IMG/VR virus record: IMGVR_UViG_3300024348_000007
Source of the DNA: a virus
Length of the DNA stretch: 64,000 nt
Direction: 5' to 3' (one strand)
In this document: positions 24,825 to 47,293 of the stretch, in pieces
How the letters are laid out: every line of letters starts with the position of its first letter
Numbering within the stretch: position 1 is the stretch's first letter
Notes under the pieces: generated by a model
The model's input: only the letters and a program-made list of their open reading frames with translations
The model's database searches: none
What the model was told of the DNA's origin: nothing
Position numbers and translations under genes: made by a program

Positions 24825-24862
24825 AAAGAAAAATAGAAGCCTAACTGGGGAGAGTGAACCGA

Positions 24863-27800
24863 ATGGCAAATGATAAAAAATTCATAGTAAAGAACGGACT
24901 TCAATCTGAGAATAACGTTCTTGTCGGTACTACAACAGATGACGGCGTAAATAAATTACAAGTATCAGGTACAACTAAGCTTATAAACTCAGGCTCATCG
25001 GTTCCAATTACTATTGAGAACACGGGCGGTATTAATACTCCTTTAATAAATTTTGAAGGTGGTGTAGGCGCGCTACAAGTTAAAAACACGGGTAGCGGAG
25101 ACTATAGTATTCTCAATACCTCAGGCGCTAACGAAATAAAATTTAATGATAATACTGCAAATGGTTTGGTATTCATTGCTGGCAATACAGATCAGCTTAA
25201 AATCAATACTACTGTAGCAGATTTCACTAATGTTCCTTCTATTAATGGTGTACCAGTTTGGTATAGCGGTAACGATGGAGCAGGATCTGGTCTTGATGCC
25301 GACTTATTAGACGGTCTTAATTCAATACAATTCCTGCGTAGCGATGAAAACGATACTTTTGACGGTGACTTAGTTATAACTGGTGATCTTACTGTACAAG
25401 GTACTCGTACTGAAATAATTTCAGAAACAGTTTTAATTGCTGATAATATCATTACACTTAATAGTAATTTCACAGCATCTAATCCTACAGAAAATGCAGG
25501 TATAGAAGTAGAACGTGGTACTTTAACTAATTCAATTTTTCAATGGAACGAAACTATGGACTGGTGGGAACTTAATTCTGCTGGTACAAGTTTAGGACGT
25601 ATTATTACAACAGCCGATGAAGGTTCAGGCAACGGGTTTGATGCGGATACAGTTGATGGTTTACAAGCTTCACAATTTATTCGTTCTGATGTTAATGACG
25701 TCGCAACTGGTAATTTAGAATTTGAAGGCACAGTTGCTATTGGTAACGAGGCTGGTTCCGCATTACTCACAATGCGAGGTGCTGGTACTAACAGAGTTCT
25801 TTCTTCTGATAACGGAAAGATAGGTTTCTTAGATACAGGCTTTGCTTATAATACATATTCTGATGCTAACTACAATTGGCATGTAGGGAACGATGTTATT
25901 GCTAAAAGATTACTTGATGCAGATGATAACAGCTATCTAGTCGATCCTGCGGGAGAGTCTCAACTAAATGATGTCGTATTAGTAGGTGAACTTTACGGCC
26001 ATGACGGTACTGCAAAAGATGGTAGCACATATATCGATCTTCAAAACAACGGTACAACTGGATTAATTTATTTTAACGTTGATGGCGCTGGGTTACACAC
26101 CACTTTATCAAAAGATCAGATGTTTGTAAACAAAAAAGTTGTTGCACCAAGATTTGAAGATAGCAACGATAACGGATATTATGTAGTACCTAGTAGTGTA
26201 TCAAGACTTAGCCAAATTCAAATAGATGATTATATCATACACAAAGGTGATACAAATACTTACTTTGGTTTTGACACAGATGATAGTTATAAATTGTACA
26301 TTAACGGTGTTCAACAACTCGCAATGTCAGCAAGCTCTGCCGTATTTACTAATGATGTTGAAGCGGCTAGATTTGTAGATTCAGATAACAATAGCTATTT
26401 TCTTGATCCAGCTAGTGCCTCTACTTTAAATACAATTGGTATTGACTCAGATCTTTTCCATAACGGTGATACCGATACTAAACTTTCATTCGGTACAAAT
26501 CAAATTGATTTCAATACTGGCGGTACACAAAGACTTTCTATAGCAAACGCAGCATCAACCTTCAGTCACAGTGTAATTGCTCCCAACGTTTACATAGACG
26601 ATTACATATATCATACAGGAGACACGCCTGCAAATACAACTTATTTTGGTTTTTCTGCAGATGATAATTTTGGCGTAGTATTAGGAGGTAATGGTGCACT
26701 TTTACTTACGCCTACCGCTACAACTTCTATTGCTTACATATATGCGCCTCGCTTTGTTGACACAGATAATAGTGCTAGATATTTAGATCCTAGTGCTACT
26801 TCACCTTTGAATAACATTTCTTTAGATGGTGTTTTACAAAACTTAAACGATCCAGATACATATTTAACATTTGCTTCGGATGCGGTTCAGTTTTATACTG
26901 GTAATACATTAAGAGCTTTTATTAATAATTCTTATCTTGAAACTACGGTTTCTGTAAGATCTCCAGTATATTATGGCACAAGCCAAATAGTTGATTTCTT
27001 AGATCTCGATGCAGGAGCTGGTTCTGACGCTTTAAGAGTTAGAGGTAGACTTAACATCGGTGGCGGTACTGATGTTGAAAGATTTAACGATACTACAGGA
27101 AATGGTGGTATTACTATTTCTGGTTATGCAGGTATGGGTGGAACAACTAATCCATCAATTCAAGTATCTGGTGCAAACGGCGCAAGATCTCTTTTATCTC
27201 TTAACAAGATTGATATTGGTGGAAACCCCTATTCTTCTAAAAATAACTACTTTGCAGAATTCTTAACTGATGGTGCAGCAGCTTTCTCAATCAGAGGCGA
27301 CAATTCTAAAAACGCTTATTTTATTGCAGACGCAGATCAAAAAATGGTGTTTATGGATAGTGGAGCCAATACAAGATTGGCTATGGATGAGTTAGGCAAC
27401 ACTATTATCGGTAACGACTCTATAAGTTTTACTCAAGGATCACATACACCAGTACTTGCTTCTGGAGCAAAAACAGATGGTAAACTACACGTTGACGGTT
27501 CCATTCATATAAACGGTGCAGACGATGCGTTGGTTATTGGTGGTACTACATCTACTTTCTTAAGAGATGACGAACTAGGATTTGGTTCAGGCGGTGGTTT
27601 CTATATGAACGATACTACCAATCTTAGAGTTAGAAATAATAAGTTACTAACATCAACGGGTAATGCTTCATTCGCTCAATATCTAGATGCTAATGATGTT
27701 TTATTCTATGGTGACTTTGCTAGTACATCACGAATGAATAACATAAGCCTTGTCGGTGAAGTTATACACGACGGAGATACTAATACTAAAATTGGTTTTG

Positions 27801-30800
27801 GCACAGATCAAATTATTTTTACTGCCGGTGGAACTGCACAGCTTAATGTATATACAACATATGCGCAAGCTACTACAGATATGCGATCCCCAATATTCTC
27901 TGATGCTGGTGGAACTTTTAAATTTGAGCCTAACACGAGCTCAGCTCACAGATTTACAACTCCTACCGGTTGGTTAGAAATCGGTTCTAAAGTTGCAGGT
28001 TCAACCGCATTCGATACAGATAGAGCTTTATTCACTTTCAATAAACGAGTAAATTTTGACGGCGGAATTTCTGCGGCTGACACAAACGATGACGCGTATT
28101 TTAATCGCTATTACGATTATGGAGATAATAACTATTATATAGATGCGGCTGGAGATTCACAATTAAATACTATTGACATTGACGACTTTATCAGACATCG
28201 TGGAGATACAGGAACTTATATGGGTTTCTCTGCTGCAGCAACTTATAAAGTAGTCATAGTAGGTACTGAAAGATTAAATATTGACGGAAACTCTGCTGAT
28301 TTTAATGTTGATGTTTATGCTCCTCGTTATTATGATTCTAATAATACAAACTATTACGTAGATCCTGGATCTACATCTATTGTTAATAATCTTAGAACAA
28401 ATCAAATCCAAATGGATGGTTCTTCTCTAATTATCGACTCACCATCTGGTCCTAAAGGTACCATAATGGTTACGGGTGAAAGAGATAGTTACGCTGGTTA
28501 TATGATTGATAACGACTGGGGCTTTATATCTAGTGGTGCTACAGAAATGGGTCTGTATAACGAGACAGATAACGAATGGTCATTACTCGCCAATAGAAAT
28601 AACTTCACAAGATTATATTCTAACAACATCCATCAAATTGGTGCAGAAAATGGTTACGGTTACGCTCCTAACAGAATGAGAGCGCCAATATTTGAAGACT
28701 CAAACGACACGGCATTCTATGCCGATCTGGCTGGTCAATCACGATTAAAATCTGTTAAGGCTGGCGATAGTGCAATCTATAATAATACAACTTATCCATT
28801 AGAAGTTAAGTCTTCACAAGAACGCATGATCGTTATGCAAAATACATCTGCTGACACTAACTTTCCATCAATTTTACATAATACTAGAAACTCTCGCGCT
28901 ACTATGGCGTTATCATTTAACAACATTGGTGAGCGTTTTTGGTTTGAAGAAAATGGTAATATACAAGCATACGGCGCAGGTATCTTTGGATCTCTTGCAC
29001 TTAACGGCGGTAATGAAGATCTTGGTCTTCTGAAAACTTATGGATCAGGACTTGCCGATCTTAAAATGTTTGATGCTTCAGACTATTGGGATAAGCGAGT
29101 TATTCAGCCGATGCAAGGTTCTGAAAACAGTGCTACATCTAGTACAGGCGAATATGTTAAAAACGGAAATGGTCCATTTGCATCAAGTTATGCTCTAAGA
29201 ACTGCGGGTTACAGAGATTTCGACTCTGATTATATTCCAGTTCAACCTGGAGAAACAATCTACGTTGAACAAGCTGTAAGAAATATTAGTGGTTCTGGCG
29301 GTTTATTTTATCTTGGTGTTAGAAGATACGATAAAGACAAAAACCCGATTGCGTCTAACGATGGTATTGTATACTTCGGAGCAAGCGCTATTAATAATAC
29401 TTCTACTTCTTGGACGGAATACAAAGGTACTCATACTCTTCCAACATCTCATACACCGTATAACGGTTCTGACGGAGAAGGTGTTCGCTATGTAAGAGTT
29501 ATTTCTCTTATGAATTATAGCGCAGGTGGTGCTACACGCGAATTTGGTCCTCCAATTTTAAAACGTACTAACGTACAATCTGATTTAGTTACTCCAAATC
29601 TTACAGTTGAAGTCGATTTAACGGTAGGTGGAAACGCAACAATTACCGGTGATTTAACAGTTGATGATATTACAGCAGATGTTATTACCGCAAATAGATT
29701 TGCAGATCGTGGTAATACTGCTTATTATGTTGAGCCATTAACTGGCGCTAAAGTTGCTGGTTCTTGGGATTGGACAAACGGTTCTATCAACAATCTAAAC
29801 AACTTAACATTTAACGATCCAGGTCCTAATGAAGGTATTAAATGGAACGGTGGTAATCTATGGCAGATTTATGAGTCACCAAATGACTTAGCAACTAATA
29901 CAGGTGGTAATTTACAATTTACTTCTGGTGCAAATCAAGGCTCGATGAGACTTAGAGTTGATACTTCTGGTGATGTATACGCTGGACGTTATCATAGAGC
30001 ACAACGTTTTTATGATACTAACAATGCTGCTTACTACGCAGATCCTGCTTCAACATCTGTACTTAATCAAGTATATATTAATGAATATCTCCGCCACAGT
30101 GGTGATACAGATACTTATTTAAGATTTATAGGTGCAGACGATATGCAGCTTGTTGCTGGTGGTCGTCAAATGCTTCGTATGGGTGAAGGTACAGATCCTG
30201 ATAGATTACGATTTGTTACAGATAGTAACTGGACAGACTCTAACGGTGACTGGGCAATGTCTCGTAATGTTGTTGTACAAGGTACACATACCGCTGTAAA
30301 CAGTTCATACGCGCCAATATTCTACGATTATGATGATAATGCTTATTATGGTAATTTTGCTGGCACATCTTTAATGAATATTGTTAGGGCAAATCGGTTT
30401 GAAGTAGATGGTTCTACAAGATATATCGACGGCATATCAGGTCAATACGGTACTATTAGAGTAACGGGTAACACAAACGGTTATGCTGGTTACGCGATTA
30501 ACGATGACTGGGTGTTCATGTCAAGTGGCGCTGGAATGTCAGGCATTTATAACGATACGAATAACGAATGGTCTGCTCAATTCCTACAGAATAGTGATGT
30601 TAAACTTTATCATAACGGTGGAGAGAAATTCAGCACGAACTCTGGTGGCGCTACAATTTATGGCAGACTAATAGCTGATTACATGGCAGATAGAAATAAT
30701 ACAGCGTATACTGTTAACCCTGCTGGCACATCAAGGTTCTTAGATTTAGACGTTGATAACCCTATCGGTGGAAATATCGCTGGGTATTCTGAGAACTTAT

Positions 30801-33433
30801 TAAGAGTTGATAACAGAGATATTGAGCCAAATGATCATACTGCAGGCAGATTAACGTTTGGTTTCACATCTTGGAATAATAACAACACATCACCTTGGGC
30901 TGATTATTTACACTTAAGATCTTATACAGATGCATCAGGTGGATCAGATAACCTTCTTATGTTTAAGAAGTCTGGTCGTGGAATGCGTTTATGGCAACAA
31001 ACTTTTAACAGTGGTACAGCGTATTCCGCGTATTCTGATGTTGCGATATATAACGCAAACCCTGGTAATACGCCTTTCTATGCATCAAGATACTATGATT
31101 CAAATAATACTGCATACTACGGTGATTTTGCATCAACATCCATTGTTAATATAATTAGGTATGCGTCTGGTGGTTATGCAGAGTTCCAAACAGCAGCCGG
31201 TAATATTCGCGGATATATGCAAGCAACTGACGACAACGATGCGCACCTTAAAATTGCTACATCGGGCGGTGAAGATATTAGATTTACGGACGGCGGCCTA
31301 TCCGGTGATTGGAATGTGATTATCAGAGGTGATGGTCAAACATTAATTCGAAGCAGATTAGACACTCCTATCATGTACGATAGAGATGATACTGGTTATT
31401 ATAGTAATCCAGCAGGAGCCTCCAACTTTAATACAAGTATTCGCGCAAACGAGGTTTATGCACGTAACTGGTTCAGAAATGATAACTCTGGCGAGGGTAT
31501 GTATAACCAAGCAACGGGTATGCATTGGTATTCAACAAATAATACCACTTGGAGAGCATACGGCGGACAGACTACTGTAAAAATAGAAATGAACACAGCT
31601 AGTAATACTTTAAGAGGTTCATTCTACGCAAACAATAGTGATGAAGTAGGTATCTTATCTCAAGATAATGGTTGGGCTTTACAAGCTACTAACTCTAAAG
31701 TAGATGCGCACCATAATTTCTATGCTCCTATCTTTTATGATAGAGACGATTCAAATTATTATGTAAATCCAGCCGGCGATGCAAGAATTTCTGGTACTGT
31801 TCAAGCAAACCGTTTTACACATAGAGATGCAGTATCACAAAACGATACTTTTGGACTATATTTTGCTGATAACGCATCTACTGCATACGCGATTTATCGT
31901 GAAAGCGGTGGTTGGAGCAGCCCATATCCAGATTTAAGAATTGCTTTCCATACTGGTATTAAGTTTGGTGCAAACTCTGGTTACCAAGGTATGCGTTTCT
32001 ATAATGACTATAACATGGTTACTCAGGTTATGTCAATCAATAATGGTAGTGACCCATTAGGTGCTAACGATGTTTATGTAAATAACTCATTGCAATCAGG
32101 CAATTCATTAAGATCGCCTATTTTTTATGACTCGAACGATACAGCTCGTTACACGAACCCTGCAAGTACATCTGAAATGGGCACTATACGAGCCGATCGT
32201 TTTGATATGCGTGATCGTGGAGATTGGATTACTTTCTATGGTGATGATAGTACAAACCATGGTATTGCATCTCGTGGTTCTACAGGAACCGCAACTGACG
32301 ATATTCGTATTAACACCTATGGTTCTCTTTTTATTAACCTAGACTCAAACAACAATAATACATCTGGAGCTGACTTCTATATTGGTCGCCATGGTAGTGC
32401 TACTGGTACTATTGCTAATAGTGACTTGTTTAGAGTATACGGTGATGATAACTATGCTTACTCAGCATACAGTTTCAGAGCGCCTATCTTCTATGACTCA
32501 AACGACACTGGTTATTATTGTAATCCGAACAGTTCATCTAATTTTGCTACATCTGTTCGTGCAAATGAATTCTATGCTCGTAACTGGTTCCGTAATGATA
32601 ATGGCGCAGAAGGTTTATATAACCAAAATAACGGTTGTCACTTCTATGCGAGATCGTCTCAATACTGGCACGCGACTGGTAATAATAACGCCAGTGCTAT
32701 TAATATGCAATTAAGATCAACATATGACGGCAATATTAGGATGTGGTTACACGGTGACTCATCAAGTTGGTGTGGATACTTAAATGATGGCGGTCAATGG
32801 ATGATTAGAACTAGAATGACAGATGGTTCGTCTCCAAACCACTGGTATTATGAGGATTCAAACACAACTTGGACCGGTAACCCTGGGAATGATAAAGGTA
32901 AAATTGAATATCACTCAGATAGATTTTATATCGCTGCTGGTGGTAACTCAAATAGAATTTGTCAATTCCGTAGAGATGGTACTGATAAAGCTTATGTTAA
33001 TAACGATGGCGTTTATGTCGGTACAGCTACGTCAGCACAATGGGCTGACCTTGCAGAAAGATATAGCGCTGACGAAGTTTATGAGAATGGTACATTACTA
33101 GGTATGAACCTAGACGGTGAATCTGAAGGTACTCTTTATCAACCAGGAATGCCTATCTTAGGAGTTATTTCTACATCGCCTGGTGTTAAAATGAACGACA
33201 TGGAAATCGAAGATGATAACTCTCTTGAAGGTAAAATGAACCCTTATATTGCTCTTAAAGGACGTATACCGTGTAAAGTAAATGGAGACGTTAAAAAGGG
33301 TCAATGGTTAATACCTGATATTGACGGTAAATGTAAAGGAATAGATTATGGTACTTCTGGTATAAATAGTCATGAAATTATAGGAATTGCGCTTAGCGAC
33401 TCCGAAAATGGTGAAGTAGAGGTGAAAGTATAA
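24863..33433 (+). CDS. long tail fibre (~2856 aa) with C-terminal autoproteolytic intramolecular chaperone (Peptidase G2-like)
   Basis: ATG at 24863 follows a GGGGAGAG SD. GSGLDADLLDG motif and many 'P.FYDS..T.YY..PA..S' repeats. C-terminal WADLAERY...ILGVIST.PG..MN...IALKGRIPCKV.G.VKKG domain. Confidence 0.8.
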   Translation: MANDKKFIVKNGLQSENNVLVGTTTDDGVNKLQVSGTTKLINSGSSVPITIENTGGINTPLINFEGGVGALQVKNTGSGDYSILNTSGANEIKFNDNTANGLVFIAGNTDQLKINTTVADFTNVPSINGVPVWYSGNDGAGSGLDADLLDGLNSIQFLRSDENDTFDGDLVITGDLTVQGTRTEIISETVLIADNIITLNSNFTASNPTENAGIEVERGTLTNSIFQWNETMDWWELNSAGTSLGRIITTADEGSGNGFDADTVDGLQASQFIRSDVNDVATGNLEFEGTVAIGNEAGSALLTMRGAGTNRVLSSDNGKIGFLDTGFAYNTYSDANYNWHVGNDVIAKRLLDADDNSYLVDPAGESQLNDVVLVGELYGHDGTAKDGSTYIDLQNNGTTGLIYFNVDGAGLHTTLSKDQMFVNKKVVAPRFEDSNDNGYYVVPSSVSRLSQIQIDDYIIHKGDTNTYFGFDTDDSYKLYINGVQQLAMSASSAVFTNDVEAARFVDSDNNSYFLDPASASTLNTIGIDSDLFHNGDTDTKLSFGTNQIDFNTGGTQRLSIANAASTFSHSVIAPNVYIDDYIYHTGDTPANTTYFGFSADDNFGVVLGGNGALLLTPTATTSIAYIYAPRFVDTDNSARYLDPSATSPLNNISLDGVLQNLNDPDTYLTFASDAVQFYTGNTLRAFINNSYLETTVSVRSPVYYGTSQIVDFLDLDAGAGSDALRVRGRLNIGGGTDVERFNDTTGNGGITISGYAGMGGTTNPSIQVSGANGARSLLSLNKIDIGGNPYSSKNNYFAEFLTDGAAAFSIRGDNSKNAYFIADADQKMVFMDSGANTRLAMDELGNTIIGNDSISFTQGSHTPVLASGAKTDGKLHVDGSIHINGADDALVIGGTTSTFLRDDELGFGSGGGFYMNDTTNLRVRNNKLLTSTGNASFAQYLDANDVLFYGDFASTSRMNNISLVGEVIHDGDTNTKIGFGTDQIIFTAGGTAQLNVYTTYAQATTDMRSPIFSDAGGTFKFEPNTSSAHRFTTPTGWLEIGSKVAGSTAFDTDRALFTFNKRVNFDGGISAADTNDDAYFNRYYDYGDNNYYIDAAGDSQLNTIDIDDFIRHRGDTGTYMGFSAAATYKVVIVGTERLNIDGNSADFNVDVYAPRYYDSNNTNYYVDPGSTSIVNNLRTNQIQMDGSSLIIDSPSGPKGTIMVTGERDSYAGYMIDNDWGFISSGATEMGLYNETDNEWSLLANRNNFTRLYSNNIHQIGAENGYGYAPNRMRAPIFEDSNDTAFYADLAGQSRLKSVKAGDSAIYNNTTYPLEVKSSQERMIVMQNTSADTNFPSILHNTRNSRATMALSFNNIGERFWFEENGNIQAYGAGIFGSLALNGGNEDLGLLKTYGSGLADLKMFDASDYWDKRVIQPMQGSENSATSSTGEYVKNGNGPFASSYALRTAGYRDFDSDYIPVQPGETIYVEQAVRNISGSGGLFYLGVRRYDKDKNPIASNDGIVYFGASAINNTSTSWTEYKGTHTLPTSHTPYNGSDGEGVRYVRVISLMNYSAGGATREFGPPILKRTNVQSDLVTPNLTVEVDLTVGGNATITGDLTVDDITADVITANRFADRGNTAYYVEPLTGAKVAGSWDWTNGSINNLNNLTFNDPGPNEGIKWNGGNLWQIYESPNDLATNTGGNLQFTSGANQGSMRLRVDTSGDVYAGRYHRAQRFYDTNNAAYYADPASTSVLNQVYINEYLRHSGDTDTYLRFIGADDMQLVAGGRQMLRMGEGTDPDRLRFVTDSNWTDSNGDWAMSRNVVVQGTHTAVNSSYAPIFYDYDDNAYYGNFAGTSLMNIVRANRFEVDGSTRYIDGISGQYGTIRVTGNTNGYAGYAINDDWVFMSSGAGMSGIYNDTNNEWSAQFLQNSDVKLYHNGGEKFSTNSGGATIYGRLIADYMADRNNTAYTVNPAGTSRFLDLDVDNPIGGNIAGYSENLLRVDNRDIEPNDHTAGRLTFGFTSWNNNNTSPWADYLHLRSYTDASGGSDNLLMFKKSGRGMRLWQQTFNSGTAYSAYSDVAIYNANPGNTPFYASRYYDSNNTAYYGDFASTSIVNIIRYASGGYAEFQTAAGNIRGYMQATDDNDAHLKIATSGGEDIRFTDGGLSGDWNVIIRGDGQTLIRSRLDTPIMYDRDDTGYYSNPAGASNFNTSIRANEVYARNWFRNDNSGEGMYNQATGMHWYSTNNTTWRAYGGQTTVKIEMNTASNTLRGSFYANNSDEVGILSQDNGWALQATNSKVDAHHNFYAPIFYDRDDSNYYVNPAGDARISGTVQANRFTHRDAVSQNDTFGLYFADNASTAYAIYRESGGWSSPYPDLRIAFHTGIKFGANSGYQGMRFYNDYNMVTQVMSINNGSDPLGANDVYVNNSLQSGNSLRSPIFYDSNDTARYTNPASTSEMGTIRADRFDMRDRGDWITFYGDDSTNHGIASRGSTGTATDDIRINTYGSLFINLDSNNNNTSGADFYIGRHGSATGTIANSDLFRVYGDDNYAYSAYSFRAPIFYDSNDTGYYCNPNSSSNFATSVRANEFYARNWFRNDNGAEGLYNQNNGCHFYARSSQYWHATGNNNASAINMQLRSTYDGNIRMWLHGDSSSWCGYLNDGGQWMIRTRMTDGSSPNHWYYEDSNTTWTGNPGNDKGKIEYHSDRFYIAAGGNSNRICQFRRDGTDKAYVNNDGVYVGTATSAQWADLAERYSADEVYENGTLLGMNLDGESEGTLYQPGMPILGVISTSPGVKMNDMEIEDDNSLEGKMNPYIALKGRIPCKVNGDVKKGQWLIPDIDGKCKGIDYGTSGINSHEIIGIALSDSENGEVEVKV
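33361..33368 (+). promoter_or_regulatory. candidate late promoter TATAAATA inside the 3' end of the fibre gene
   Basis: Exact consensus 67 bp before the ATG of the first Cys/His-tailed gene. It is intragenic, so it could be chance. Confidence 0.5.
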
Positions 33434-33434
33434 T

Positions 33435-33848
33435 ATGCCATCATATGCAGATTTAAACACTAGCATGCAAGAAAAAGCTGGGGCACAGCTACGCACGTTT
33501 GATAAAGGAATTACTATTACAATACAATCGTGGGTTCGTATTTGGGGGTTTGATAGCTCTTACGGATCATGGATGATTGTTAACGGCTATGGTTGGTATG
33601 GTAATAGTGCTCATTACCACAGATTTGAATATGTTAACGCAAATAACACATTGTTTGAAAACTATCTTGATGGCGGAATATATACCGGTGGTATTATCCG
33701 TTCACAAGATGTTATTGATTCAATTACCGATGTTGTTCGAAGAGCTGTTGATTTGGTCGAAGGCAGACTAACTAACAGAAGTATGACTGCACGTCCTTGT
33801 CACCAAAGCTGTCATAGTAGTTGTCATACATCTAGAGGAAGAAGATAA
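33435..33848 (+). CDS. putative radical-SAM substrate / fibre-tip protein A with C-terminal CHQSCHSSCHTSRGRR
   Basis: Starts 1 nt after the fibre stop. Aromatic-rich core with a Cys/His/Ser repeat tail. Paralog of the next gene. Confidence 0.65.
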   Translation: MPSYADLNTSMQEKAGAQLRTFDKGITITIQSWVRIWGFDSSYGSWMIVNGYGWYGNSAHYHRFEYVNANNTLFENYLDGGIYTGGIIRSQDVIDSITDVVRRAVDLVEGRLTNRSMTARPCHQSCHSSCHTSRGRR

Positions 33849-34270
33849 TGGCTGCATCAGTATCTGACATTAACTCATATGTACAAACATATTCTGGCTC
33901 ACAACTAAGAACTTTTGATAAAACCGTCACATATACCGTAAATACGTATGTTCGGTATTATCGATTTGATAGCGCATATGGCGGTGCGTTGAGGCTTGAC
34001 GGTGCTCAATATACTACAAACTCAACCTTTACTAGAAGATATCTTCATTACTCCTGGACCGGGCGCGATGCACTCTTTGACGGCTATTATGACTCTGGAA
34101 TTACTGCAGGTGGACTTATGTATGCTCAAGATATTGTAGATACTGTAGAAGATGCTGTAAGAAGAGCTGTTGATCTAATGGAGGAAAGAATCGTAAATAC
34201 AGTCAAGACAATTAACGCGTGCCATGCTAGTTGCCATAGTAGTTGTCACACATCGAGAGGAAGACGCTAA
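33848..34270 (+). CDS. putative radical-SAM substrate / fibre-tip protein B with C-terminal CHASCHSSCHTSRGRR
   Basis: TAATG overlaps on both sides. Shares QLRTFDK, FDSxYG, LFxxYxDxGIxxGG, QD, D.VRRAVDL.E.R and the tail with protein A. Confidence 0.65.
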   Translation: MAASVSDINSYVQTYSGSQLRTFDKTVTYTVNTYVRYYRFDSAYGGALRLDGAQYTTNSTFTRRYLHYSWTGRDALFDGYYDSGITAGGLMYAQDIVDTVEDAVRRAVDLMEERIVNTVKTINACHASCHSSCHTSRGRR

Positions 34271-35445
34271 TGTCTATGCAAAAATCATATTGTAAACAAA
34301 TGAGATATTCTGGACCAGAAAGTCTAACACCATCTGATGCATCTAAATTCGATGTTCTTATTCAAATGGAAGTTTTAGCTGGGTGCGATCACGGTTGCTT
34401 AGGTTGTTTCGTAGATAAAAACATTAATCCTGATATGAACCAACAAATTATTGATAGAGCAAAGGAACTCGCTGATGGTGTAAAAAGAACTGGGCTTAAT
34501 CTTAGAGAATTTGTCATAGGTCCAACAGATTTCTTTTCTGCAACTAACACGGAGTCAGTTTTAAATAACTCAGTAGTCCAAGAGATTATGAGAGAACACG
34601 TTGGCGCTCGGATTGCAGCACCTGCAAAATTTGATATCGCTACAATGGAAAGAGTAAAAGAAATCTATGCAATTCTTGATGACGAAGATAAGTATCGCCG
34701 TGATATGATCATTGAGTTTATTATGCCAATCGGTAAAGTAGATCAGATGTTAAATGATGAAGAATACTTTAATAATGTTATGGAAAAAGTAGAATTCTTT
34801 AAAAATAATACACCAAAACAAATGGATTGGTCTTGGACACTACAGGCTTCTAACGTTGTTGGTAAGAAGATTGATAAAGAAACATATAACAAGATTGTTC
34901 AAAAATCAGTAAACGAATACAAGACTATTGTAGAAATGAACCCTGCTTTCTCAAGAGCGAGATCCCAATTGGTACAGCGTAGAAACCTGTTTGGATGGAA
35001 CGATTTCCTTGGTAGAGTTATTGATAAAGATAACGCACAAGAGACAGTTATGTCAATGGCTAATCTTTATTGTAACTCAATTAACTTTATTGGACTTACA
35101 ATCGTACCAGGAGAACACGGACCTACTACACATTTAAATGTAATGCTACACGAACAAGCATTCTTCCTTAATAATAAAAACTTAGACGTTACAGGTCTTA
35201 CCTTCGAAGAAATATTAGATCGTAAAAACGAGCTAGTAACCAAGGGCATAAATAGATCAAGCAAAGTATCTGATTGCAACGGATGCCAATTTGCCGTAGC
35301 TTGTGCAAGTAGACTAATTTTTGAAGCTCAAGAAACTTTAAACGTCGATGGATGTGTTTTAAACAAAGATGTCCTTGCAGAATATAACCCATACGATTGG
35401 ACTTGGAACGACGATGCGATGGAAAAACTAGGAGTAACATCATGA
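34270..35445 (+). CDS. radical SAM protein 1 (IGPTD family, C-terminal Cys cluster)
   Basis: EVLAGCDHGCLGCFV (CX3CX2C), VIGPTDF, and CNGCQFAVAC...GC. The ATG at 34270 overlaps the upstream stop. Confidence 0.85.
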   Translation: MSMQKSYCKQMRYSGPESLTPSDASKFDVLIQMEVLAGCDHGCLGCFVDKNINPDMNQQIIDRAKELADGVKRTGLNLREFVIGPTDFFSATNTESVLNNSVVQEIMREHVGARIAAPAKFDIATMERVKEIYAILDDEDKYRRDMIIEFIMPIGKVDQMLNDEEYFNNVMEKVEFFKNNTPKQMDWSWTLQASNVVGKKIDKETYNKIVQKSVNEYKTIVEMNPAFSRARSQLVQRRNLFGWNDFLGRVIDKDNAQETVMSMANLYCNSINFIGLTIVPGEHGPTTHLNVMLHEQAFFLNNKNLDVTGLTFEEILDRKNELVTKGINRSSKVSDCNGCQFAVACASRLIFEAQETLNVDGCVLNKDVLAEYNPYDWTWNDDAMEKLGVTS

Positions 35446-36524
35446 TAGGTCAACACCTTTATTTTTTAAATAACAAAAAATATATTACAAACTCGACTAA
35501 TCTCGAAACTGTATTTTTCGAGATGAACTCGTTTTATCACACGAAAACACCTAGAACAGTTTGTATGATTGAATCATCAATGCCAGACAGCCAAATCGTC
35601 CAGTATGATGTAAGAGTACGTGCTGATTCTATTCGCGCTAATGCCGGTGCTGATATTATTTTTAAACCTTGGGAAGAAGTTTGTACTAGTGAGTTTATCC
35701 AAAATAGCGAAAAATATATTCTTGTAGCTTGGGAAGAAGAAGATCAAATTCACATTCACGCAAGATATGCCGCTGGCTTATTAGCCGCTGCTGGTTTCTA
35801 TGCAGATACTGATCACGACGTAAACACTATTGTTGGTGAATTTATGGAAAAAATCTTTGATTGTGATAGTATGTTCACGTATATGTCAGCGGCTCCTGCC
35901 GTTCAAGATATATCAAACACAGTTGAAACTATTTTGAATAATCCAGAAACTCCACCTTTTGATGTTATATATCAAAACGGTAAAAACTTTAGCTATGACT
36001 TTTTATTCTTTTTAAACGAATTCTATCCCTGCGCAGAAGTACAAGCTCTGTTAATCGAGAAGTTTACAATTCATAGCGCTGATATGGCACAAGATGTTAT
36101 GGAACACTTTACGTCACGGCGCCACTACTTGGCATATATTCTTTCTGTAATTGATTGGATGAACAATAACGGTTTACCAGTAGATAAACAACAATTTGTA
36201 AACGATGTTTATATGAAAGCTGCTAATAAAGGTAATTATCAAATTGCGTTTTATCAATTGGAAGAGTTATGGAATAGGGTAAAAGATAACGAAGCTTTCA
36301 TTCTTGCACATACTGATAAAAGAGATAACACAAGAGATGGTTGGGAATTTTGGGATATGTATACCGAAATAAGCAACGTATTCCCTATCGTTAAAAAGGT
36401 GCTTGAGCGTAGTTTTGATATGGATAATCTAACAGAAGACTTGAGGTTGATTAACACTGATGTTCAGTTCTTCTCTAAAAGACAAAATAGAATTCCATAT
36501 TTGATACACAAATACACATTATAG
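35442..36524 (+). CDS. hypothetical protein (~360 aa) in the radical SAM operon
   Basis: ATGA overlap with rSAM1 and a GGAG SD; no motif recognised. Confidence 0.65.
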   Translation: MIGQHLYFLNNKKYITNSTNLETVFFEMNSFYHTKTPRTVCMIESSMPDSQIVQYDVRVRADSIRANAGADIIFKPWEEVCTSEFIQNSEKYILVAWEEEDQIHIHARYAAGLLAAAGFYADTDHDVNTIVGEFMEKIFDCDSMFTYMSAAPAVQDISNTVETILNNPETPPFDVIYQNGKNFSYDFLFFLNEFYPCAEVQALLIEKFTIHSADMAQDVMEHFTSRRHYLAYILSVIDWMNNNGLPVDKQQFVNDVYMKAANKGNYQIAFYQLEELWNRVKDNEAFILAHTDKRDNTRDGWEFWDMYTEISNVFPIVKKVLERSFDMDNLTEDLRLINTDVQFFSKRQNRIPYLIHKYTL

Positions 36525-36534
36525 GATGTAATAA

Positions 36535-37440
36535 ATGAATGATAATGATACAAACAACTTGAATCCAGACAGAGAATTCGAAGATCACAAACTTTCAGAG
36601 CGTGAGAAGAATTTTAAAGCTTATACTTTACCTCTTGCTCCTCAAGATTTAGTTGCGATATATAAACAAAAAGAAGAAGATAAAGACTTTATTCTCTATG
36701 TAGACTACTATCAAACTAAACAGAAATTAAGCCCTAAGCATATTATTATATATTTGGCAAACACCAACTTTAAGGCTGGCTTTACTTTCTTAGATGAAGA
36801 ATTAATTACAGAATATATTAAATCAGATTTTATGATTGATTGTCCAATTCTTGTGCGTATGGTTTCTATTATAGTCAGAATGAGATTGCATTATGATATC
36901 AATGGTGCTGAAAAGAAATTAACTATTTTATTCCCAGAAGAAAAAATACATCAATTTATTGAACAGAACATTGAATTAGTCGATGAACTAATCGAAACTA
37001 TTAGAGATTCTGTGCCGTGGGCTATGGTTAATTTGCATGAAAACTTGACTGACGAAGCCAAAAAAGAAGAGAAAGAACTTACAAACTTTATTAATAATAT
37101 TGATGTTTATGATAAACCATCGAATTGCGGACCTAACGTTGCACGATTTATTACAGAAGCTTGGGACGGGTTTTTATGTATTATTCATAATAAGGGTGTA
37201 AGCTCGACTTATAATAAAACAGTTTATAATGAACAACCAAAGTACTTTGGTAAAGATTTATACTACATTATGAACGAAACTAGGGTTATAGATCAGATTA
37301 TGGCATTGTTCCCATCATGGTTTTGGGCTAAAATCGAAACAGTAGATATAAACGCGCTATTAGAAGAAACTGAGGGCGAACATATCGATAAATTTGTCGA
37401 CGGTCTTGAAGATAAGTTCAATGATAGTCCATCTAAATAA
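36535..37440 (+). CDS. hypothetical protein (301 aa) in the radical SAM operon
   Basis: Acidic, helical-looking ORF with an AGGA SD; no motif recognised. Confidence 0.65.
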   Translation: MNDNDTNNLNPDREFEDHKLSEREKNFKAYTLPLAPQDLVAIYKQKEEDKDFILYVDYYQTKQKLSPKHIIIYLANTNFKAGFTFLDEELITEYIKSDFMIDCPILVRMVSIIVRMRLHYDINGAEKKLTILFPEEKIHQFIEQNIELVDELIETIRDSVPWAMVNLHENLTDEAKKEEKELTNFINNIDVYDKPSNCGPNVARFITEAWDGFLCIIHNKGVSSTYNKTVYNEQPKYFGKDLYYIMNETRVIDQIMALFPSWFWAKIETVDINALLEETEGEHIDKFVDGLEDKFNDSPSK

Positions 37441-38443
37441 TTCTTATGCTGGCTATTATACATATGATGAAGATAAAAGTCCAACAAATATTGATTTTCT
37501 CAGAACAGAAATAAATTTAGATATCTTACACGGATGTTCTCAACAATGTCCTGGATGCTTTATACCAAGAAAAAACTTAACAAAAGCAGATAACCTAGAA
37601 ACCTTATATAATCTTCTTATAGAAGGCGCGTATTATCCTGACGAAATAACAATCGGCCCAACTGATATATTCGATGCTGAAAATTTCAATGAAATCATGA
37701 ATCATCCTTATATGGAAAAAATATACGGAATATCTGCAGTAGGATTTACATCCACTTTAACTCAACCTTATCAATTAATAAGAGATAAACTTGATAAGAT
37801 ATGGAGTTTATATAACAATATAGCGAGAATACCGGATATTGATTTTAAAATTGTTTTAGATATAAACAAATATTTAGATGGAGAATTAGATGATTGGTAT
37901 CGTAAACTTGCGATGTTTAAACATGGTTCTGTGCAATTTAGAGTTAACTATCATAAAGATATATTCAAACGCATTTCATACAATGAATTAGCTCAAAAAG
38001 TATTCGATGACTTTAACGCGCCAGTTATAATCACGCCTTCTTTCTTAACTGATAGAAATGCAAGAGGTAAAGTAGAACAACACCTTGCAAACTTTAGACG
38101 TGAAATGGTTGAACAAAACATAGATAAAAAATGGCTAAACTTATATACATTTTTTGATGCGAAGTTTAACGGTTATGGTTGTCAAAATTATAGTTTTTAT
38201 AATAACAAACTCTATATTAATCCATTCTTATATGATGTGATTATTCAACGTACACCTCAGTTTGAAACAAATATGGATGCTAATACTTTATACGACAACA
38301 TAGAATATGCACAACAAGTTGATGACTGTAATGGATGTGAATATATGATGAGTTGTGCAGAACGCAACGTTCATTTGTATATGGAGTCGAGAGGATTAGA
38401 CACTTGCGTCGCATTGAAAGAATACATGTATGCCTCTAATTAA
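37421..38443 (+). CDS. radical SAM protein 2 (IGPTD family)
   Basis: DILHGCSQQCPGCFI, TIGPTDI, and CNGCEYMMSC...TC. Confidence 0.85.
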   Translation: MIVHLNNSYAGYYTYDEDKSPTNIDFLRTEINLDILHGCSQQCPGCFIPRKNLTKADNLETLYNLLIEGAYYPDEITIGPTDIFDAENFNEIMNHPYMEKIYGISAVGFTSTLTQPYQLIRDKLDKIWSLYNNIARIPDIDFKIVLDINKYLDGELDDWYRKLAMFKHGSVQFRVNYHKDIFKRISYNELAQKVFDDFNAPVIITPSFLTDRNARGKVEQHLANFRREMVEQNIDKKWLNLYTFFDAKFNGYGCQNYSFYNNKLYINPFLYDVIIQRTPQFETNMDANTLYDNIEYAQQVDDCNGCEYMMSCAERNVHLYMESRGLDTCVALKEYMYASN

Positions 38444-39587
38444 GAATAATCTATACTATGAGATGACCACAGAGACTCAGACAAAGCCTGTATCAGCGGT
38501 TAAGATACAGCTAGACGTTTTAGACGGATGCCACCATAAGTGTCCTGGATGCTTTGTACACAGACGTGGTAACTCAAGTGATAAAAATCAGTTAGAGAAT
38601 GCAAAGCAATTTATCAGAAGTATTACAGATCAAGGCATACTTGTTGATGAAATATTAATTGGTCCTACTGACTTTTTAGCATCAGAGAATTTCTTTGATG
38701 TCATGCCTGATTTATTAGATATTATAAATGAGAACTCTCCTATATTAGCGTTTGTTTCTACATTAATTGATGGAGACATAGAAGGATTTTGCGAGTTTAT
38801 TACAGACTATGTAAATTTAGATACTGAGATAGAAATAGGTATTGCGTCAAATCCTTATAAGTTTTTCGATAAAGACTATTTACAACACATCTCTGATATG
38901 TTATATTATATAGATCAAAATCTAGAACATGAAGTAACTTATACTTTTGTTGTTAATATAAGAGATTACGATCTAGATTATTCTGAACTTCACAGATACG
39001 CGGTAGAAAAGTTTGATACAATCCTAGATTTTATTCCAAGCGTATCGCGCTCTCATAAAGCAAAAATGATTTTAGAAACTCTTGATAAGTTTAATGATTA
39101 CTTTAATGTCTTAGCCAAAGATACTAATCTTAATAACATTATGGTTGATCATTCTCATGCTGGAATTAATTATACTGTTTTAAACTATAAAAGAGGAGAG
39201 TGGTATCTTAGTCCGTTTATGTATGAAAATATGGCAATATACCATGAAATGTTTAAGATAGATTCTTTTGAAGATGTCGTACCAATGGTAGAAGACCAGA
39301 TACGTAGAGCAAAAGGAACTGAATGTGAAAATTGCGAGTTGTTTTTTTCTTGTTATAATAGAAAAATTATCTTATTAAGAGATTATTTAGGAGTCGATAG
39401 ATGCATTGCTCCTAAAAAGAATATGTTGAACAATATACACAATTATAATGGCCCTGCACAAGAAATGTATAAATGGGAAGGATATTCTGTAGAGAATGAC
39501 AAAAAAGGTTATCGCAAAAAGTTTTTAGTCACCACAGATGATGATCCAGAATTAGAAAGAATTAAGGATATATCTTATGTTAAATAA
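38430..39587 (+). CDS. radical SAM protein 3 (IGPTD family)
   Basis: DVLDGCHHKCPGCFV, LIGPTDF, and CENCELFFSC...RC. Confidence 0.85.
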   Translation: MPLIKNNLYYEMTTETQTKPVSAVKIQLDVLDGCHHKCPGCFVHRRGNSSDKNQLENAKQFIRSITDQGILVDEILIGPTDFLASENFFDVMPDLLDIINENSPILAFVSTLIDGDIEGFCEFITDYVNLDTEIEIGIASNPYKFFDKDYLQHISDMLYYIDQNLEHEVTYTFVVNIRDYDLDYSELHRYAVEKFDTILDFIPSVSRSHKAKMILETLDKFNDYFNVLAKDTNLNNIMVDHSHAGINYTVLNYKRGEWYLSPFMYENMAIYHEMFKIDSFEDVVPMVEDQIRRAKGTECENCELFFSCYNRKIILLRDYLGVDRCIAPKKNMLNNIHNYNGPAQEMYKWEGYSVENDKKGYRKKFLVTTDDDPELERIKDISYVK

Positions 39588-40734
39588 TGATTGGAAAGAT
39601 ATAGTAAGTGGAGGCGGAATGGGTGAAGAGTTCGCTTCTATTGATAGTATGAAACAATATAAAATTCAAGTTAACCTAGAAATATTAGAAGGTTGCTCTT
39701 ATATGTGTCCTGGTTGTTTTGTGAAACGTCGCGGAAACTGGCATCCAAAATCAATAACAATGTTTCATTCTTTGGCTTACGAATTAAAAGATAGAACAGA
39801 CATCGTATTAGATGATATTGTGATAGGACCTACTGATTTCTACGGAGCTGAAAACTTAGATGAGATTATCAATAATTTAAAATTATCTGACGCCATTAAG
39901 ATGATGCCAAAAGATAATAGAAACATTCAACACAATTGTTCTATACTTGGTTCGTTATCTGAGAAAGATATTGAAGGAAAGATAAGAGATATTGAGAAAT
40001 CGCCTTTAGGAGAAGCAGTAGAAGCCTGGGATGTTCAGATCGCTTTGGATTTAAATCGATTAATGAATGACCAAGAATATATCGATGCGCTTGATGAAAG
40101 GATAGAGACATTTAAAAACAGCTCTTTAAACTTCGAAATATCAATGGCTACTAATATCGTTCAAGGTGTAGAAGAAATACTATACCCAGCTATTGATTTT
40201 GTTCGTTCGAAATACGAAACTGTTATCGAAGTATTACCTTCTGTAGTTAGATCATTTAACCATAGTGCAAAGCACGGTGATAAACTATTTGAATGGAATG
40301 ATATGTTAACTCGATTGGCATTAGATACGCATCGTTTTAAAAATAAGTTTCACTTCTTACAGGGAGATGTATCGCATAAAGCATTTAATTATTCAGTTAT
40401 AAGTATTCACAAAGGAAACATGTATTTGTCTCCTTTCATATACGAAAATGCTCAGATACACACAGAAGATTTTCTAGTATCTGATGGTTGGATGTGGTTA
40501 CCAGATGCTGATATATCTGATTTCATACTAGATAGAAAGAATGAAATTGTCAATAGTCAAATTGAAAATAGTCTTGAAAAAGAATGTGGAACATGCAAAT
40601 ATCTTAACATATGCGCGAACAGAATGGTGCCATTAATAATGGATACAGTATTTAATGGAAGAAAGGAATGCATTCTTAATAAAGATGTTATTGCTTTATT
40701 TGATGATGAGGTTTATCATGGGAATAGTTACTAA
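39577..40734 (+). CDS. radical SAM protein 4 (IGPTD family)
   Basis: EILEGCSYMCPGCFV, VIGPTDF, and CGTCKYLNIC...EC. Confidence 0.85.
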   Translation: MLNNDWKDIVSGGGMGEEFASIDSMKQYKIQVNLEILEGCSYMCPGCFVKRRGNWHPKSITMFHSLAYELKDRTDIVLDDIVIGPTDFYGAENLDEIINNLKLSDAIKMMPKDNRNIQHNCSILGSLSEKDIEGKIRDIEKSPLGEAVEAWDVQIALDLNRLMNDQEYIDALDERIETFKNSSLNFEISMATNIVQGVEEILYPAIDFVRSKYETVIEVLPSVVRSFNHSAKHGDKLFEWNDMLTRLALDTHRFKNKFHFLQGDVSHKAFNYSVISIHKGNMYLSPFIYENAQIHTEDFLVSDGWMWLPDADISDFILDRKNEIVNSQIENSLEKECGTCKYLNICANRMVPLIMDTVFNGRKECILNKDVIALFDDEVYHGNSY

Positions 40735-47223: not shown

Positions 47224-47231
47224 TATTTATA
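47224..47231 (-). promoter_or_regulatory. T4-type late promoter (TATAAATA on minus strand)
   Basis: TATTTATA on + strand, ~25 bp upstream of the cupin gene that heads the minus-strand radical SAM operon. Confidence 0.75.
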
Positions 47232-47258
47232 CCATAATTTTAGAGCTTTGTAAACCGT

Positions 47259-47266
47259 TATAAATA
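47259..47266 (+). promoter_or_regulatory. T4-type late promoter TATAAATA
   Basis: Exact consensus upstream of the 2OG-Fe(II) oxygenase gene, divergent from the 47224 promoter. Confidence 0.75.
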
Positions 47267-47293
47267 ATTGTATATATTATGAGGAGATTGATT

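What the first reader, a model, noticed from the sequence alone, without database searches (positions are those of the whole stretch)
33798..34270. Near-invariant C-terminal core (C-H-x-S)3-R-G-R-R in two otherwise diverged paralogs
Seen: 33798-33845 encodes CHQSCHSSCHTSRGRR and 34220-34267 encodes CHASCHSSCHTSRGRR. That is 15 of 16 residues identical with many synonymous codon differences, while the rest of the proteins is much more diverged, pointing to protein-level selection. The motif combines Cys-every-fourth spacing (as in SCIFF/CXXX-repeat rSAM targets) with three H-x-S triplets (as in His-Xaa-Ser systems). Inference: this is the modified core, RGRR is a follower or recognition tag, and the conserved helix D.VRRAVDL.E.R is a leader-like docking site.
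Basis: partly seen in the sequence, partly recalled or inferred. Interest (0 to 1): 0.85.

Follow-up and report, generated by a model that had tools for sequence, protein, structure and literature searches.

The report
Radical-SAM-linked Cys/His tail on phage virion proteins
Two small phage proteins end in an invariant (Cys-His-x-Ser)x3-Arg-Gly-Arg-Arg tail that, in every phage examined here, lies next to a battery of radical SAM enzymes and that in one cultured phage sits on a virion protein, which points to an undescribed enzyme-made modification of phage particle proteins.

Summary
Genes at 33435-33848 and 33848-34270 both end in CHxSCHSSCHTSRGRR: 15 of 16 residues are identical, and 7 of the 15 shared residues use different codons.

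About 250 homologues from marine viromes and cultured jumbo phages carry the same C-terminal tail. The consensus is (C-H-x-[S>N,A])3-R-[G>S,N]-R-R-stop, and it occurs on scaffolds of 125-541 aa, some fused to tail-fibre segments. Synonymous sites in the tail are saturated (dN/dS about 0.05, against 0.13-0.19 in the rest of the gene).

Every locus examined has radical SAM genes beside the tail gene. The universal core is a cupin, four SPASM-type radical SAM maturases, a 132-aa acidic protein and the tail protein. In this window the core enzymes lie on the minus strand (41696-47198). The five 'IGPTD' radical SAM paralogues at 34270-41737 are a clade-specific addition.

Published virion proteomics of Agrobacterium phage Atu_ph07 detect its tail-bearing protein gp170 (31.89 kDa), most abundant in the top gel slice, and list none of the neighbouring enzymes.

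Best reading (about 0.6): the tail is the site of radical-SAM-dependent modification or crosslinking of a late, virion-associated protein. Modification itself is not shown.

It is not a member of the His-Xaa-Ser, SCIFF or CXXX-repeat families. The 'leader-like helix' is specific to one subfamily. First readers of this scan noted the same tail in another genome.

The parts
24854..33433 (+). Giant fibre-like structural gene (2859 aa) directly upstream. The position is kept in relatives but the gene varies (a 2893-aa homologue, or collagen-like fibre genes).
   Evidence: neighbouring ORFs hit tail-fibre PHROGs
33361..33368 (+). TATAAATA, the T4-type late-promoter consensus, 67 nt upstream of tail gene A
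   Evidence: The total count (11) is not above chance (10.6 expected), but at least 8 of the 11 copies lie just upstream of gene starts.
33435..33848 (+). Tail protein A (137 aa), the 'first' paralogue
33798..33845 (+). Tail motif of A: CHQSCHSSCHTSRGRR
33848..34270 (+). Tail protein B (140 aa), the 'second' paralogue; TAATG overlaps at both ends
34220..34267 (+). Tail motif of B: CHASCHSSCHTSRGRR
34270..35445 (+). rS1, 'IGPTD'-type radical SAM paralogue (CX3CX2C plus C-terminal CX2CX5C...C)
35442..36524 (+). Conserved unknown protein (about 360-375 aa) of the add-on cassette
36535..37440 (+). Conserved unknown protein (301 aa, PHROG 20767) of the add-on cassette
37394..38443 (+). rS2, IGPTD-type radical SAM paralogue
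38430..39587 (+). rS3, IGPTD-type radical SAM paralogue
39577..40734 (+). rS4, IGPTD-type radical SAM paralogue
40655..41737 (+). rS5, IGPTD-type radical SAM paralogue
41696..42415 (-). Conserved unknown protein (239 aa, PHROG 7084), last gene of the minus-strand cassette
42387..43523 (-). Core radical SAM/SPASM enzyme 'mR378' (CX3CX2C; C-terminal CX2CX5CX3C set)
43456..43854 (-). Core accessory protein 'm141' (132 aa from the conserved Met; PHROG 20737; acidic; WIYPAKSY motif). Present in every full system.
43835..44749 (-). Core radical SAM enzyme 'mR304' (one auxiliary Cys set)
44727..45764 (-). Core radical SAM/SPASM enzyme 'mR345'. PF04055 is above its cutoff. Best sub-threshold NCBIfam hits are DynA and the anaerobic sulfatase maturase. 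It is 55-61% identical to genes of cultured jumbo phages.
45755..46783 (-). Core radical SAM/SPASM enzyme 'mR342' (full SPASM Cys set). In the minimal systems it lies immediately upstream of the tail gene. Best sub-threshold hits are DarE, PapB and HxsB.
46743..47198 (-). Cupin (JmjC-like) protein, first gene of the core cassette
47224..47231 (-). TATAAATA late-promoter consensus 26 nt upstream of the cupin start
47279..47863 (+). 2OG-Fe(II) oxygenase, often part of the system in relatives; its own TATAAATA lies at 47259

Best explanation
The two genes encode late-expressed, probably virion- or fibre-associated proteins. Their variable body carries a constant C-terminal module: a hydrophobic strand, then (Cys-His-x-Ser/Asn)x3, then Arg-Gly-Arg-Arg at the carboxyl end.

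Inferred mechanism. This module is the substrate site of a dedicated phage maturation system. The universal core of that system is four SPASM-type radical SAM enzymes, a cupin-type oxygenase and a small acidic accessory protein. In this phage clade five further divergent radical SAM paralogues, two unknown proteins and a 2OG-Fe(II) oxygenase are added.

Most likely chemistry. The enzymes install several site-specific radical modifications on the Cys and/or His residues: thioether or other crosslinks of the ranthipeptide, darobactin or dynobactin type, possibly with oxidation by the cupin and 2OG enzymes. The result would be a rigid, covalently tied tail, or covalent links between subunits, in the finished particle. 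The terminal R-G-R-R and the preceding strand would serve as the constant recognition handle.

Shown: the motif, its selection, its strict genomic linkage to the enzymes, the enzyme class, and the presence of one homologue in a virion. Inferred: that the tail is modified, the chemistry, and the structural role.
For: 1. The tail is conserved on diverged scaffolds. All 119 word-indexed homologues and about 130 of 149 50%-cluster representatives end in the tail, although the bodies fall to 35% identity or align only over the last 25-60 residues.

2. Protein-level selection with saturated synonymous sites.

3. Linkage. Every one of about 67 loci has radical SAM genes next to the tail gene. The invariant neighbours across T4-like, phiKZ-like and Rak2-like phages are the cupin, mR342, mR345, mR304, mR378 and m141. 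A reverse search with the enzyme mR345 found Ralstonia RSF1, Agrobacterium Atu_ph07, Pseudomonas pPa_SNUABM_DT01 and Sinorhizobium Phosso. Each has a tail protein directly after cupin-radical SAM.

4. Enzyme class. CX3CX2C plus SPASM Cys sets. Full-length sub-threshold NCBIfam alignments to DynA (1e-14), the anaerobic sulfatase maturase (7e-11), DarE (2e-11) and PapB (1e-9).

5. The five IGPTD paralogues are each conserved as separate orthologues (78-80% between phages against about 23% between paralogues). This indicates non-redundant roles.

6. Atu_ph07 virion mass spectrometry (PMC6102473, Table S5). gp170 has 8 unique peptides and 35% coverage and is most abundant in gel slice 1, although its mass is 31.89 kDa (identity checked by mass). 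The 43.5-kDa capsid protein peaks in slice 6. Its only three Cys are those of the tail. The neighbouring enzymes gp165, 168, 171 and 172 are not listed.

7. Some homologues are fused to tail-fibre segments (P0253).

8. TATAAATA late-promoter motifs lie in front of both cassettes.
Against: There is no direct evidence of any modification.

The gel behaviour of gp170 has other explanations. The loading buffer in that paper lists no reductant, so disulfides through the tail Cys, an SDS-stable oligomer or aggregation would give the same result.

Cys/His-rich C-termini in trimeric fibre proteins could simply bind metal; T4 gp37 and gp12 use His-x-His sites (general knowledge).

The enzymes fall far below every curated family cutoff, so the chemistry cannot be assigned.

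An invariant 'core' with a variable body is the reverse of typical RiPPs.

The AlphaFold model gives the tail low confidence (pLDDT 48-64).
Confidence: 0.6

Rival explanations
1. The tail is an unmodified metal-binding or disulfide-forming oligomerisation site at the C-terminus of a (trimeric) fibre-associated protein. The neighbouring radical SAM enzymes act on something else, such as another virion protein, a sugar, a lipid or a nucleotide.
For: Three Cys-His pairs with four-residue spacing would line one face of a helix; the model predicts a helix at 127-135 with low confidence. Some homologues carry fibre-like segments. gp170's only Cys are in the tail, and it runs at the top of a gel whose loading buffer lists no reductant, which fits disulfide-linked multimers. 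From general knowledge, T4 gp37 and gp12 use His-rich metal sites on the trimer axis.
Against: This reading does not explain why the tail is the one feature that travels with the cupin and four SPASM enzymes across phage groups whose tail proteins are otherwise barely alignable. It does not explain why the tail gene sits inside the enzyme operon directly after the first radical SAM gene. It does not explain the invariance of the terminal R-x-R-R. No locus has the tail without radical SAM genes.
Confidence: 0.22
2. The tail proteins are helpers of the enzymes rather than their substrates, for example small Fe-S or metal carriers, or electron donors that feed the many phage radical SAM enzymes.
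For: A CX3CX3C motif with adjacent His could ligate an Fe-S cluster or a metal ion. Strict co-occurrence with radical SAM genes fits this reading equally well. Marine T4-like phages with many radical SAM genes are reported to carry Fe-S assembly genes (PMC5332604).
Against: The homologue gp170 is found in purified virions while the enzymes are not. The bodies are highly variable and sometimes fibre-fused, which is unlike an electron carrier. The genes sit behind fibre genes, preceded by a late-promoter motif.
Confidence: 0.06
3. The tail proteins are precursors of a released small product (a true RiPP or a cofactor, as with PqqA or MftA). The modified C-terminal peptide would be cut off and act on the host or on competitors.
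For: The C-terminal position and the invariance of the modified segment resemble the cofactor precursors MftA and PqqA (general knowledge). The radical SAM/SPASM enzymes are of the peptide-maturase class.
Against: No protease or exporter gene is conserved in the core system. The bodies are 125-540 aa and one contains fibre-like segments. The whole protein (35% coverage) is found in virions.
Confidence: 0.07

Closest known systems
Ranthipeptide / SCIFF systems (CteB, PapB): radical SAM/SPASM thioether crosslinking of Cys-x3 repeat peptides
   Same: Cys recurs every fourth residue near the C-terminus. The adjacent SPASM-type radical SAM enzymes include mR342, which aligns over its full length with the PapB model (E 1e-9). 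Several Cys sites occur in one substrate.
   Different: All scores are far below the family cutoffs (PapB 37.9 against 340 bits; SCIFF maturase 19.4 against 425). The substrates are folded proteins of 125-540 aa, not peptides of about 45 aa. An invariant His follows each Cys and the chain ends in R-G-R-R. There are four to nine enzymes instead of one. The system is phage-encoded and virion-associated.
His-Xaa-Ser system (HxsA-D; NCBIfam TIGR03976-03979), uncharacterised
   Same: His-x-Ser triplets occur beside more than one radical SAM enzyme. There are weak hits to HxsB (mR342, E 2e-8) and HxsC (mR345, E 1e-5).
   Different: The hits are far below cutoff. The tail proteins match no HxsA model. 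No HxsD match was found. Ser is replaceable by Asn or Ala, while Cys, absent from the Hxs definition, is invariant here.
QhpD/QhpC (quinohemoprotein amine dehydrogenase) and the anaerobic sulfatase-maturating enzymes: radical SAM/SPASM enzymes that modify Cys in proteins rather than in short peptides
   Same: These are protein-sized substrates with Cys-directed radical chemistry. mR345 aligns over its full length with the anSME model (E 7e-11) and mR342 partly with the QhpD model. The last repeat, C-H-x-S-R, loosely recalls the sulfatase C-x-[PA]-x-R motif (comparison from memory).
   Different: The hits are below cutoff. There is no sulfatase or dehydrogenase context. Position +2 is Thr, Ser or Gly, not Pro or Ala. 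Multiple enzymes are involved.
Metal sites of phage fibre tips (T4 gp37 His-x-His iron sites, gp12 zinc site)
   Same: A short repeated metal-ligand motif at the distal or C-terminal end of fibre-associated proteins. The genes lie directly behind fibre genes.
   Different: The ligand pattern differs (Cys-His pairs with period 4). It is obligately linked to radical SAM enzymes. There is no sequence or fold similarity.

Membership tests
His-Xaa-Ser system (HxsA/B/C/D) | Precursor matches the HxsA model (His-Xaa-Ser repeat protein) | tested here: not met
   An NCBIfam scan of both tail proteins gave 0 families at E<=0.1
His-Xaa-Ser system (HxsA/B/C/D) | Paired radical SAM maturases reach the HxsB and HxsC cutoffs | tested here: not met
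   mR342 against HxsB: 33.2 bits, cutoff 370. mR345 against HxsC: 24.5 bits, cutoff 267.9. The five IGPTD paralogues had no Hxs hit.
SCIFF / ranthipeptide | Maturase reaches the SCIFF (TIGR03974) or PapB (NF047865) cutoff | tested here: not met
   19.4 bits against 425, and 37.9 against 340
SCIFF / ranthipeptide | Short (about 45-aa) precursor peptide with a Cys-rich C-terminal core | tested here: not met
   The proteins are 125-541 aa with a confidently modelled body. Only the Cys-x3 spacing is shared.
CXXX-repeat peptide modification system | Maturase or precursor matches the curated CXXX-repeat models | tested here: not met
   No such model appeared among the hits at E<=0.1 or 0.01 for any of the 9 radical SAM proteins or the 2 tail proteins
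Radical SAM superfamily | CX3CX2C cluster motif near the N-terminus and a match to PF04055 | tested here: met
   The motif is present in all nine enzymes. PF04055 is above its cutoff for mR345 (36.8 against 29.5). The others are sub-threshold.
SPASM-domain radical SAM peptide maturases | C-terminal seven-Cys set including CX2CX5CX3C, and the TIGR04085 model | tested here: inconclusive
   mR342 and mR378 carry the full Cys pattern. TIGR04085 scores 24.3 and 21.4 bits against a cutoff of 27. mR304 and the five IGPTD paralogues have only CX2CX5C...C.
RiPP precursor with a leader recognised by an RRE (PqqD-like) domain | A PqqD-like recognition element, fused or separate | tested here: inconclusive
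   No Pfam or NCBIfam hit for any accessory protein. The m141 model (pLDDT 91) gives only weak matches, Z<=3.7, several of them to winged-helix domains.
Virion structural protein | Detected in purified particles | not testable with these tools
   Shown only for the homologue Atu_ph07 gp170, in published proteomics (PMC6102473 Table S5). Not known for the two window proteins.

The most novel reading that the evidence does not exclude
Phages use a set of radical SAM enzymes to forge covalent Cys/His crosslinks in, or between, virion proteins through a universal C-terminal (Cys-His-x-Ser)3-RGRR module. That would be an enzyme-installed radical 'staple' that fixes variable receptor-binding or decoration proteins onto the particle. 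It would be the first radical-SAM post-translational modification of a virus structural protein and a new crosslink chemistry.
Probability: 0.25. Interest if true: 0.92.

Novelty: new variant of a known kind. Interest (0 to 1): 0.8.

Why it matters
If the tail is modified, this is a widespread and so far undescribed maturation pathway. It occurs in marine T4-like myophages and in phiKZ-like and Rak2-like jumbo phages.

Phages would be spending 4-9 radical SAM genes on a protein of their own particle. That would open new radical SAM chemistry on Cys-His pairs and a new principle of virion assembly or stabilisation.

It would also explain the clusters of radical SAM genes noted, without a proposed function, in marine phage genomes (PMC7029224, PMC5332604).

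The system is directly testable, because cultured phages of Ralstonia, Burkholderia, Agrobacterium, Sinorhizobium and Pseudomonas carry it.

Tried and rejected
- tblastn of the window tail protein and megablast of the region against the phage collection found nothing. This was later traced to low-complexity masking of the tail and to divergence of the bodies (one search aligns only residues 1-170 of 186).
- Pfam and NCBIfam gave nothing for the tail proteins. A profile search of the PDB gave no hit for the tail family or the IGPTD family.
- Fold searches with the tail-protein model (pLDDT 79) gave no match with Foldseek against pdb or viral libraries at E<=0.001, and a best VIA Z of 5.5, within the noise range.
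- Fold searches with the m141 model gave no match: Foldseek pdb, VIA Z<=3.7, atlas TM<0.4. ESM Atlas look-ups were uninformative.
- No whole genome is held for this window.
- The Streptomyces and Prauserella hits of the genome scan are chance matches in other reading frames of high-GC DNA with no radical SAM neighbours and were rejected.
- The ORF at 12973-13395 (140 aa, behind the 4013-aa gene) is not a third paralogue.
- The Pfam scan of the fibre C-terminus and N-terminus found nothing.
- Literature searches for the motif strings and for phage radical SAM/RiPP work found no description of this system. The jumbo-phage comparative review contains no mention of radical SAM.
- The idea that the phage is a pelagimyophage was dropped. 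Its portal protein is at most 54% identical to any cultured phage, the nearest being Stenotrophomonas DLP_6 and the Sinorhizobium phiM12 group.

Full report
**Observation**

The two ORFs are real and lie exactly where stated: 33435-33848 (137 aa) and 33848-34270 (140 aa). They end in CHQSCHSSCHTSRGRR and CHASCHSSCHTSRGRR. Fifteen of 16 residues are identical, and 7 of the 15 shared residues use different codons. The proteins as a whole are 46% identical. Both junctions are TAATG overlaps: gene A to gene B, and gene B to the first radical SAM gene.

**Conservation**

A word-indexed search found 126 homologues, all metagenomic and largely marine. Every full-length one ends in CHxSCHxSCHxSRGRR, down to 35% overall identity.

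An exhaustive profile search of 1.84 billion cluster representatives found 149 families. Most of these are 170-235 aa, and a few are 300-541 aa. They align only over the last 25-120 residues yet end in the same tail.

Over 233 non-redundant tails that fit the Cys/Arg frame, the frequencies are as follows:

| Position | Frequency |
|---|---|
| His (three positions) | 233/233, 233/233, 232/233 |
| 'Ser' (three positions) | 94%, 85%, 95% Ser; otherwise Asn or Ala |
| Gly in R-G-R-R | 93% |

Rare variants have two or four repeats (P0143; L064).

Codon tables show both Ser codon families, both Arg codon families and near-even Cys and His codon use. Pooled dN/dS is 0.046 in the tail against 0.13-0.19 elsewhere, with synonymous divergence just as high in the tail. 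The pairs are not independent and dS is near saturation. The tail is therefore held by protein-level selection, not by gene conversion.

A tree shows that 'first' and 'second' genes form separate, old groups: 3-4 label changes against 24.5 for shuffled labels. Both paralogues have therefore been kept for a long time.

**Context in the window**

The window comes from a marine T4-like myophage. It carries portal, terminase, tail sheath and tail-sheath-stabiliser genes, has 36.7% GC, and its portal protein is at most 54% identical to that of any cultured phage.

The tail genes follow a 2859-aa fibre-like gene. Downstream lie five radical SAM paralogues and two unknown ORFs. On the minus strand lie four more radical SAM genes (PHROG 1802), a 132-141-aa protein (PHROG 20737), a 239-aa protein and a cupin. 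A 2OG-Fe(II) oxygenase follows on the plus strand.

TATAAATA, the T4 late-promoter consensus, lies 67 nt before gene A and 26 nt before the cupin gene. The total count of this octamer in the window is not above chance, but its copies mostly sit just upstream of gene starts.

**Which enzymes go with the tail**

I compared about 67 loci: 55 from IMG/VR, 4 ENA contigs, 6 phage-like contigs from genome bins, and 4 cultured phages. Every locus has radical SAM genes beside the tail gene, and short contigs show at least one.

The marine clade keeps the whole arrangement of this window. In some members it forms a single plus-strand operon (L009, L025, L035).

In the distant 180-300-aa families the neighbours are the minus-strand set only: cupin, mR342, tail gene, mR378, mR345, mR304, m141, with or without 2OG oxygenases. 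That set is therefore the universal core. The five 'IGPTD' paralogues are an addition.

Each of those five is nevertheless conserved as its own orthologue: 78-80% identity between phages against about 23% between paralogues. The invariant features are G-C-x3-C-x-G-C-F, I-G-P-T-D and C-x2-C-x5-C...C.

**Reverse test**

Searching cultured phages with the enzyme mR345 returned 15 records at 55-61% identity. In each of the four lineages inspected, the gene after cupin-radical SAM ends in the tail:

| Phage | Protein | Tail |
|---|---|---|
| Ralstonia RSF1 | ORF071, 186 aa | CHSSCHSSCHGSRGRR |
| Agrobacterium Atu_ph07 | gp170, 296 aa | CHSSCHASCHNSRSRR |
| Pseudomonas pPa_SNUABM_DT01 | 178 aa | CHTSCHTSCHSARGRR |
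| Sinorhizobium Phosso | 306 aa | CHTSCHASCHSSRSRR |

The first tblastn searches missed these because the low-complexity filter masks the tail.

**Enzyme class**

mR342 and mR378 have the full SPASM cysteine pattern, and mR345 a close variant.

The NCBIfam alignments are full-length but far below the curated cutoffs:

- mR345: DynA 1e-14, anaerobic sulfatase maturase 7e-11.
- mR342: DarE 2e-11, PapB 1e-9, HxsB 2e-8.

The enzymes therefore belong to the peptide- and protein-modifying SPASM group but to no named family.

The tail proteins match no curated family. Only PHROG 35144, of unknown function, matches, and only over the tail end.

**Experimental lead from the literature**

Attai et al. 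2018 (PMC6102473) analysed Atu_ph07 virions by SDS-PAGE slices and MS/MS. Their Table S5 lists gp170 at 31.89 kDa, with 8 unique peptides and 35% coverage, present in slices 1-9 and most abundant in slice 1.

The mass I computed for the tail-bearing ORF is 31.89 kDa, so the identity is secure. Its only three Cys are those of the tail.

Proteins of similar mass peak in slices 7-8, and the 43.5-kDa capsid protein peaks in slice 6. The enzymes gp165, gp168, gp171 and gp172 are not in the table.

The tail protein is therefore a particle component that runs as a heat- and SDS-resistant high-mass species. The loading buffer described lists no reductant, so disulfides, other crosslinks, a stable oligomer and aggregation all remain possible.

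One metagenomic homologue (P0253) carries tail-fibre PHROG segments before the tail, and another carries a Gly-rich domain, sub-threshold in Pfam.

**Structure**

The AlphaFold model of protein B has mean pLDDT 79. It shows an N-terminal helix, a beta sheet and a long helix at 93-114. The tail is a low-confidence helix. No fold match stands out.

The accessory protein m141 models confidently (pLDDT 91) but has no clear structural relative. The weak hits include winged-helix domains, which is not enough to call it a recognition element.

**Interpretation**

The best-supported reading is that the tail is the substrate site of the radical SAM system on a late, virion-associated protein. Four facts speak for this rather than for a helper role:

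- the tail is the only feature shared by all these proteins;
- the tail gene sits inside the enzyme operon;
- the enzymes are of the peptide-crosslinking class;
- the protein, not the enzymes, ends up in the particle.

The chemistry is unknown. Thioether (ranthionine-type) links from Cys, or crosslinks on His (dynobactin's maturase acts on His; from memory), with hydroxylation by the cupin and 2OG enzymes, are reasonable guesses.

The main rival is an unmodified metal or disulfide site. It remains open because nothing here shows a modification.

The assignments to the His-Xaa-Ser, SCIFF and CXXX-repeat systems fail the membership tests.

The helix D.VRRAVDL.E.R is confined to the marine 137-aa subfamily. 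Within alignment A1, D95, D98, R106, V108, D109, E112 and R114 are nearly invariant. The jumbo-phage relatives lack this helix motif.

**Novelty**

Papers note many radical SAM genes in marine T4-like genomes and in 'host recognition clusters' (PMC5332604; PMC7029224). Jumbo-phage papers annotate cupin, radical SAM and 2OG genes. I found no paper that describes the tail motif or links it to these enzymes. The library is not exhaustive.

First readers of this scan noted the same tail in this genome and in one other genome. None of those notes had been followed up.

Noticed in passing
window 932-12973, 13395-18089, 18514-22365, 22423-24810, 24854-33433: A run of very large structural genes (4013, 1564, 1283, 795 and 2859 aa). 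Several hit tail-fibre, collagen-like and baseplate PHROGs. This is a hypervariable fibre or 'host recognition' block in front of the tail genes. In relatives the gene directly upstream is replaced by collagen-like fibre genes (L003).
   Followed up: partly
window 34270-41737: The five IGPTD-type radical SAM paralogues have I-G-P-T-D where SAM-binding GGE-type motifs usually lie, and only one auxiliary Cys set (CX2CX5C...C). They match no PDB sequence by profile search and only PHROG 31457 (unknown function). This looks like a distinct, uncharacterised radical SAM family.
   Followed up: partly
window 43456-43854 (-): The universal accessory protein m141 (PHROG 20737) is acidic, has an invariant WIYPAKSY..VAICYA motif, models at pLDDT 91 and has no recognisable fold relative. 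Its likely true start is the internal Met (MKEWKARQ), not the upstream ATG.
   Followed up: partly
window 35442-36524, 36535-37440 and 41696-42415 (-): Three conserved proteins of unknown function (about 360, 301 and 239 aa; PHROGs 20767 and 7084 for the last two) travel with the cassettes in the marine clade.
   Followed up: no
L063-L065 (contigs binned as Bdellovibrio-like MAGs): Tail proteins of about 200 aa with variant tails (last Ser replaced by Ala; one with four CHxS repeats), flanked by the core radical SAM genes. Whether these contigs are phage or cellular was not determined.
   Followed up: no
L068 (Ralstonia phage RSF1 72639-91700): In RSF1 and its relatives the system is interrupted by an HNH endonuclease and two dihydrofolate-reductase genes, and it carries two 2OG-Fe(II) oxygenases. 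A baseplate wedge gene and a concanavalin-like gene lie nearby.
   Followed up: no
window 47224-47266: Two TATAAATA motifs lie back to back, on the minus strand at 47224 and on the plus strand at 47259, in the 80-nt gap between the cupin and 2OG oxygenase genes. This looks like a divergent late-promoter pair.
   Followed up: no
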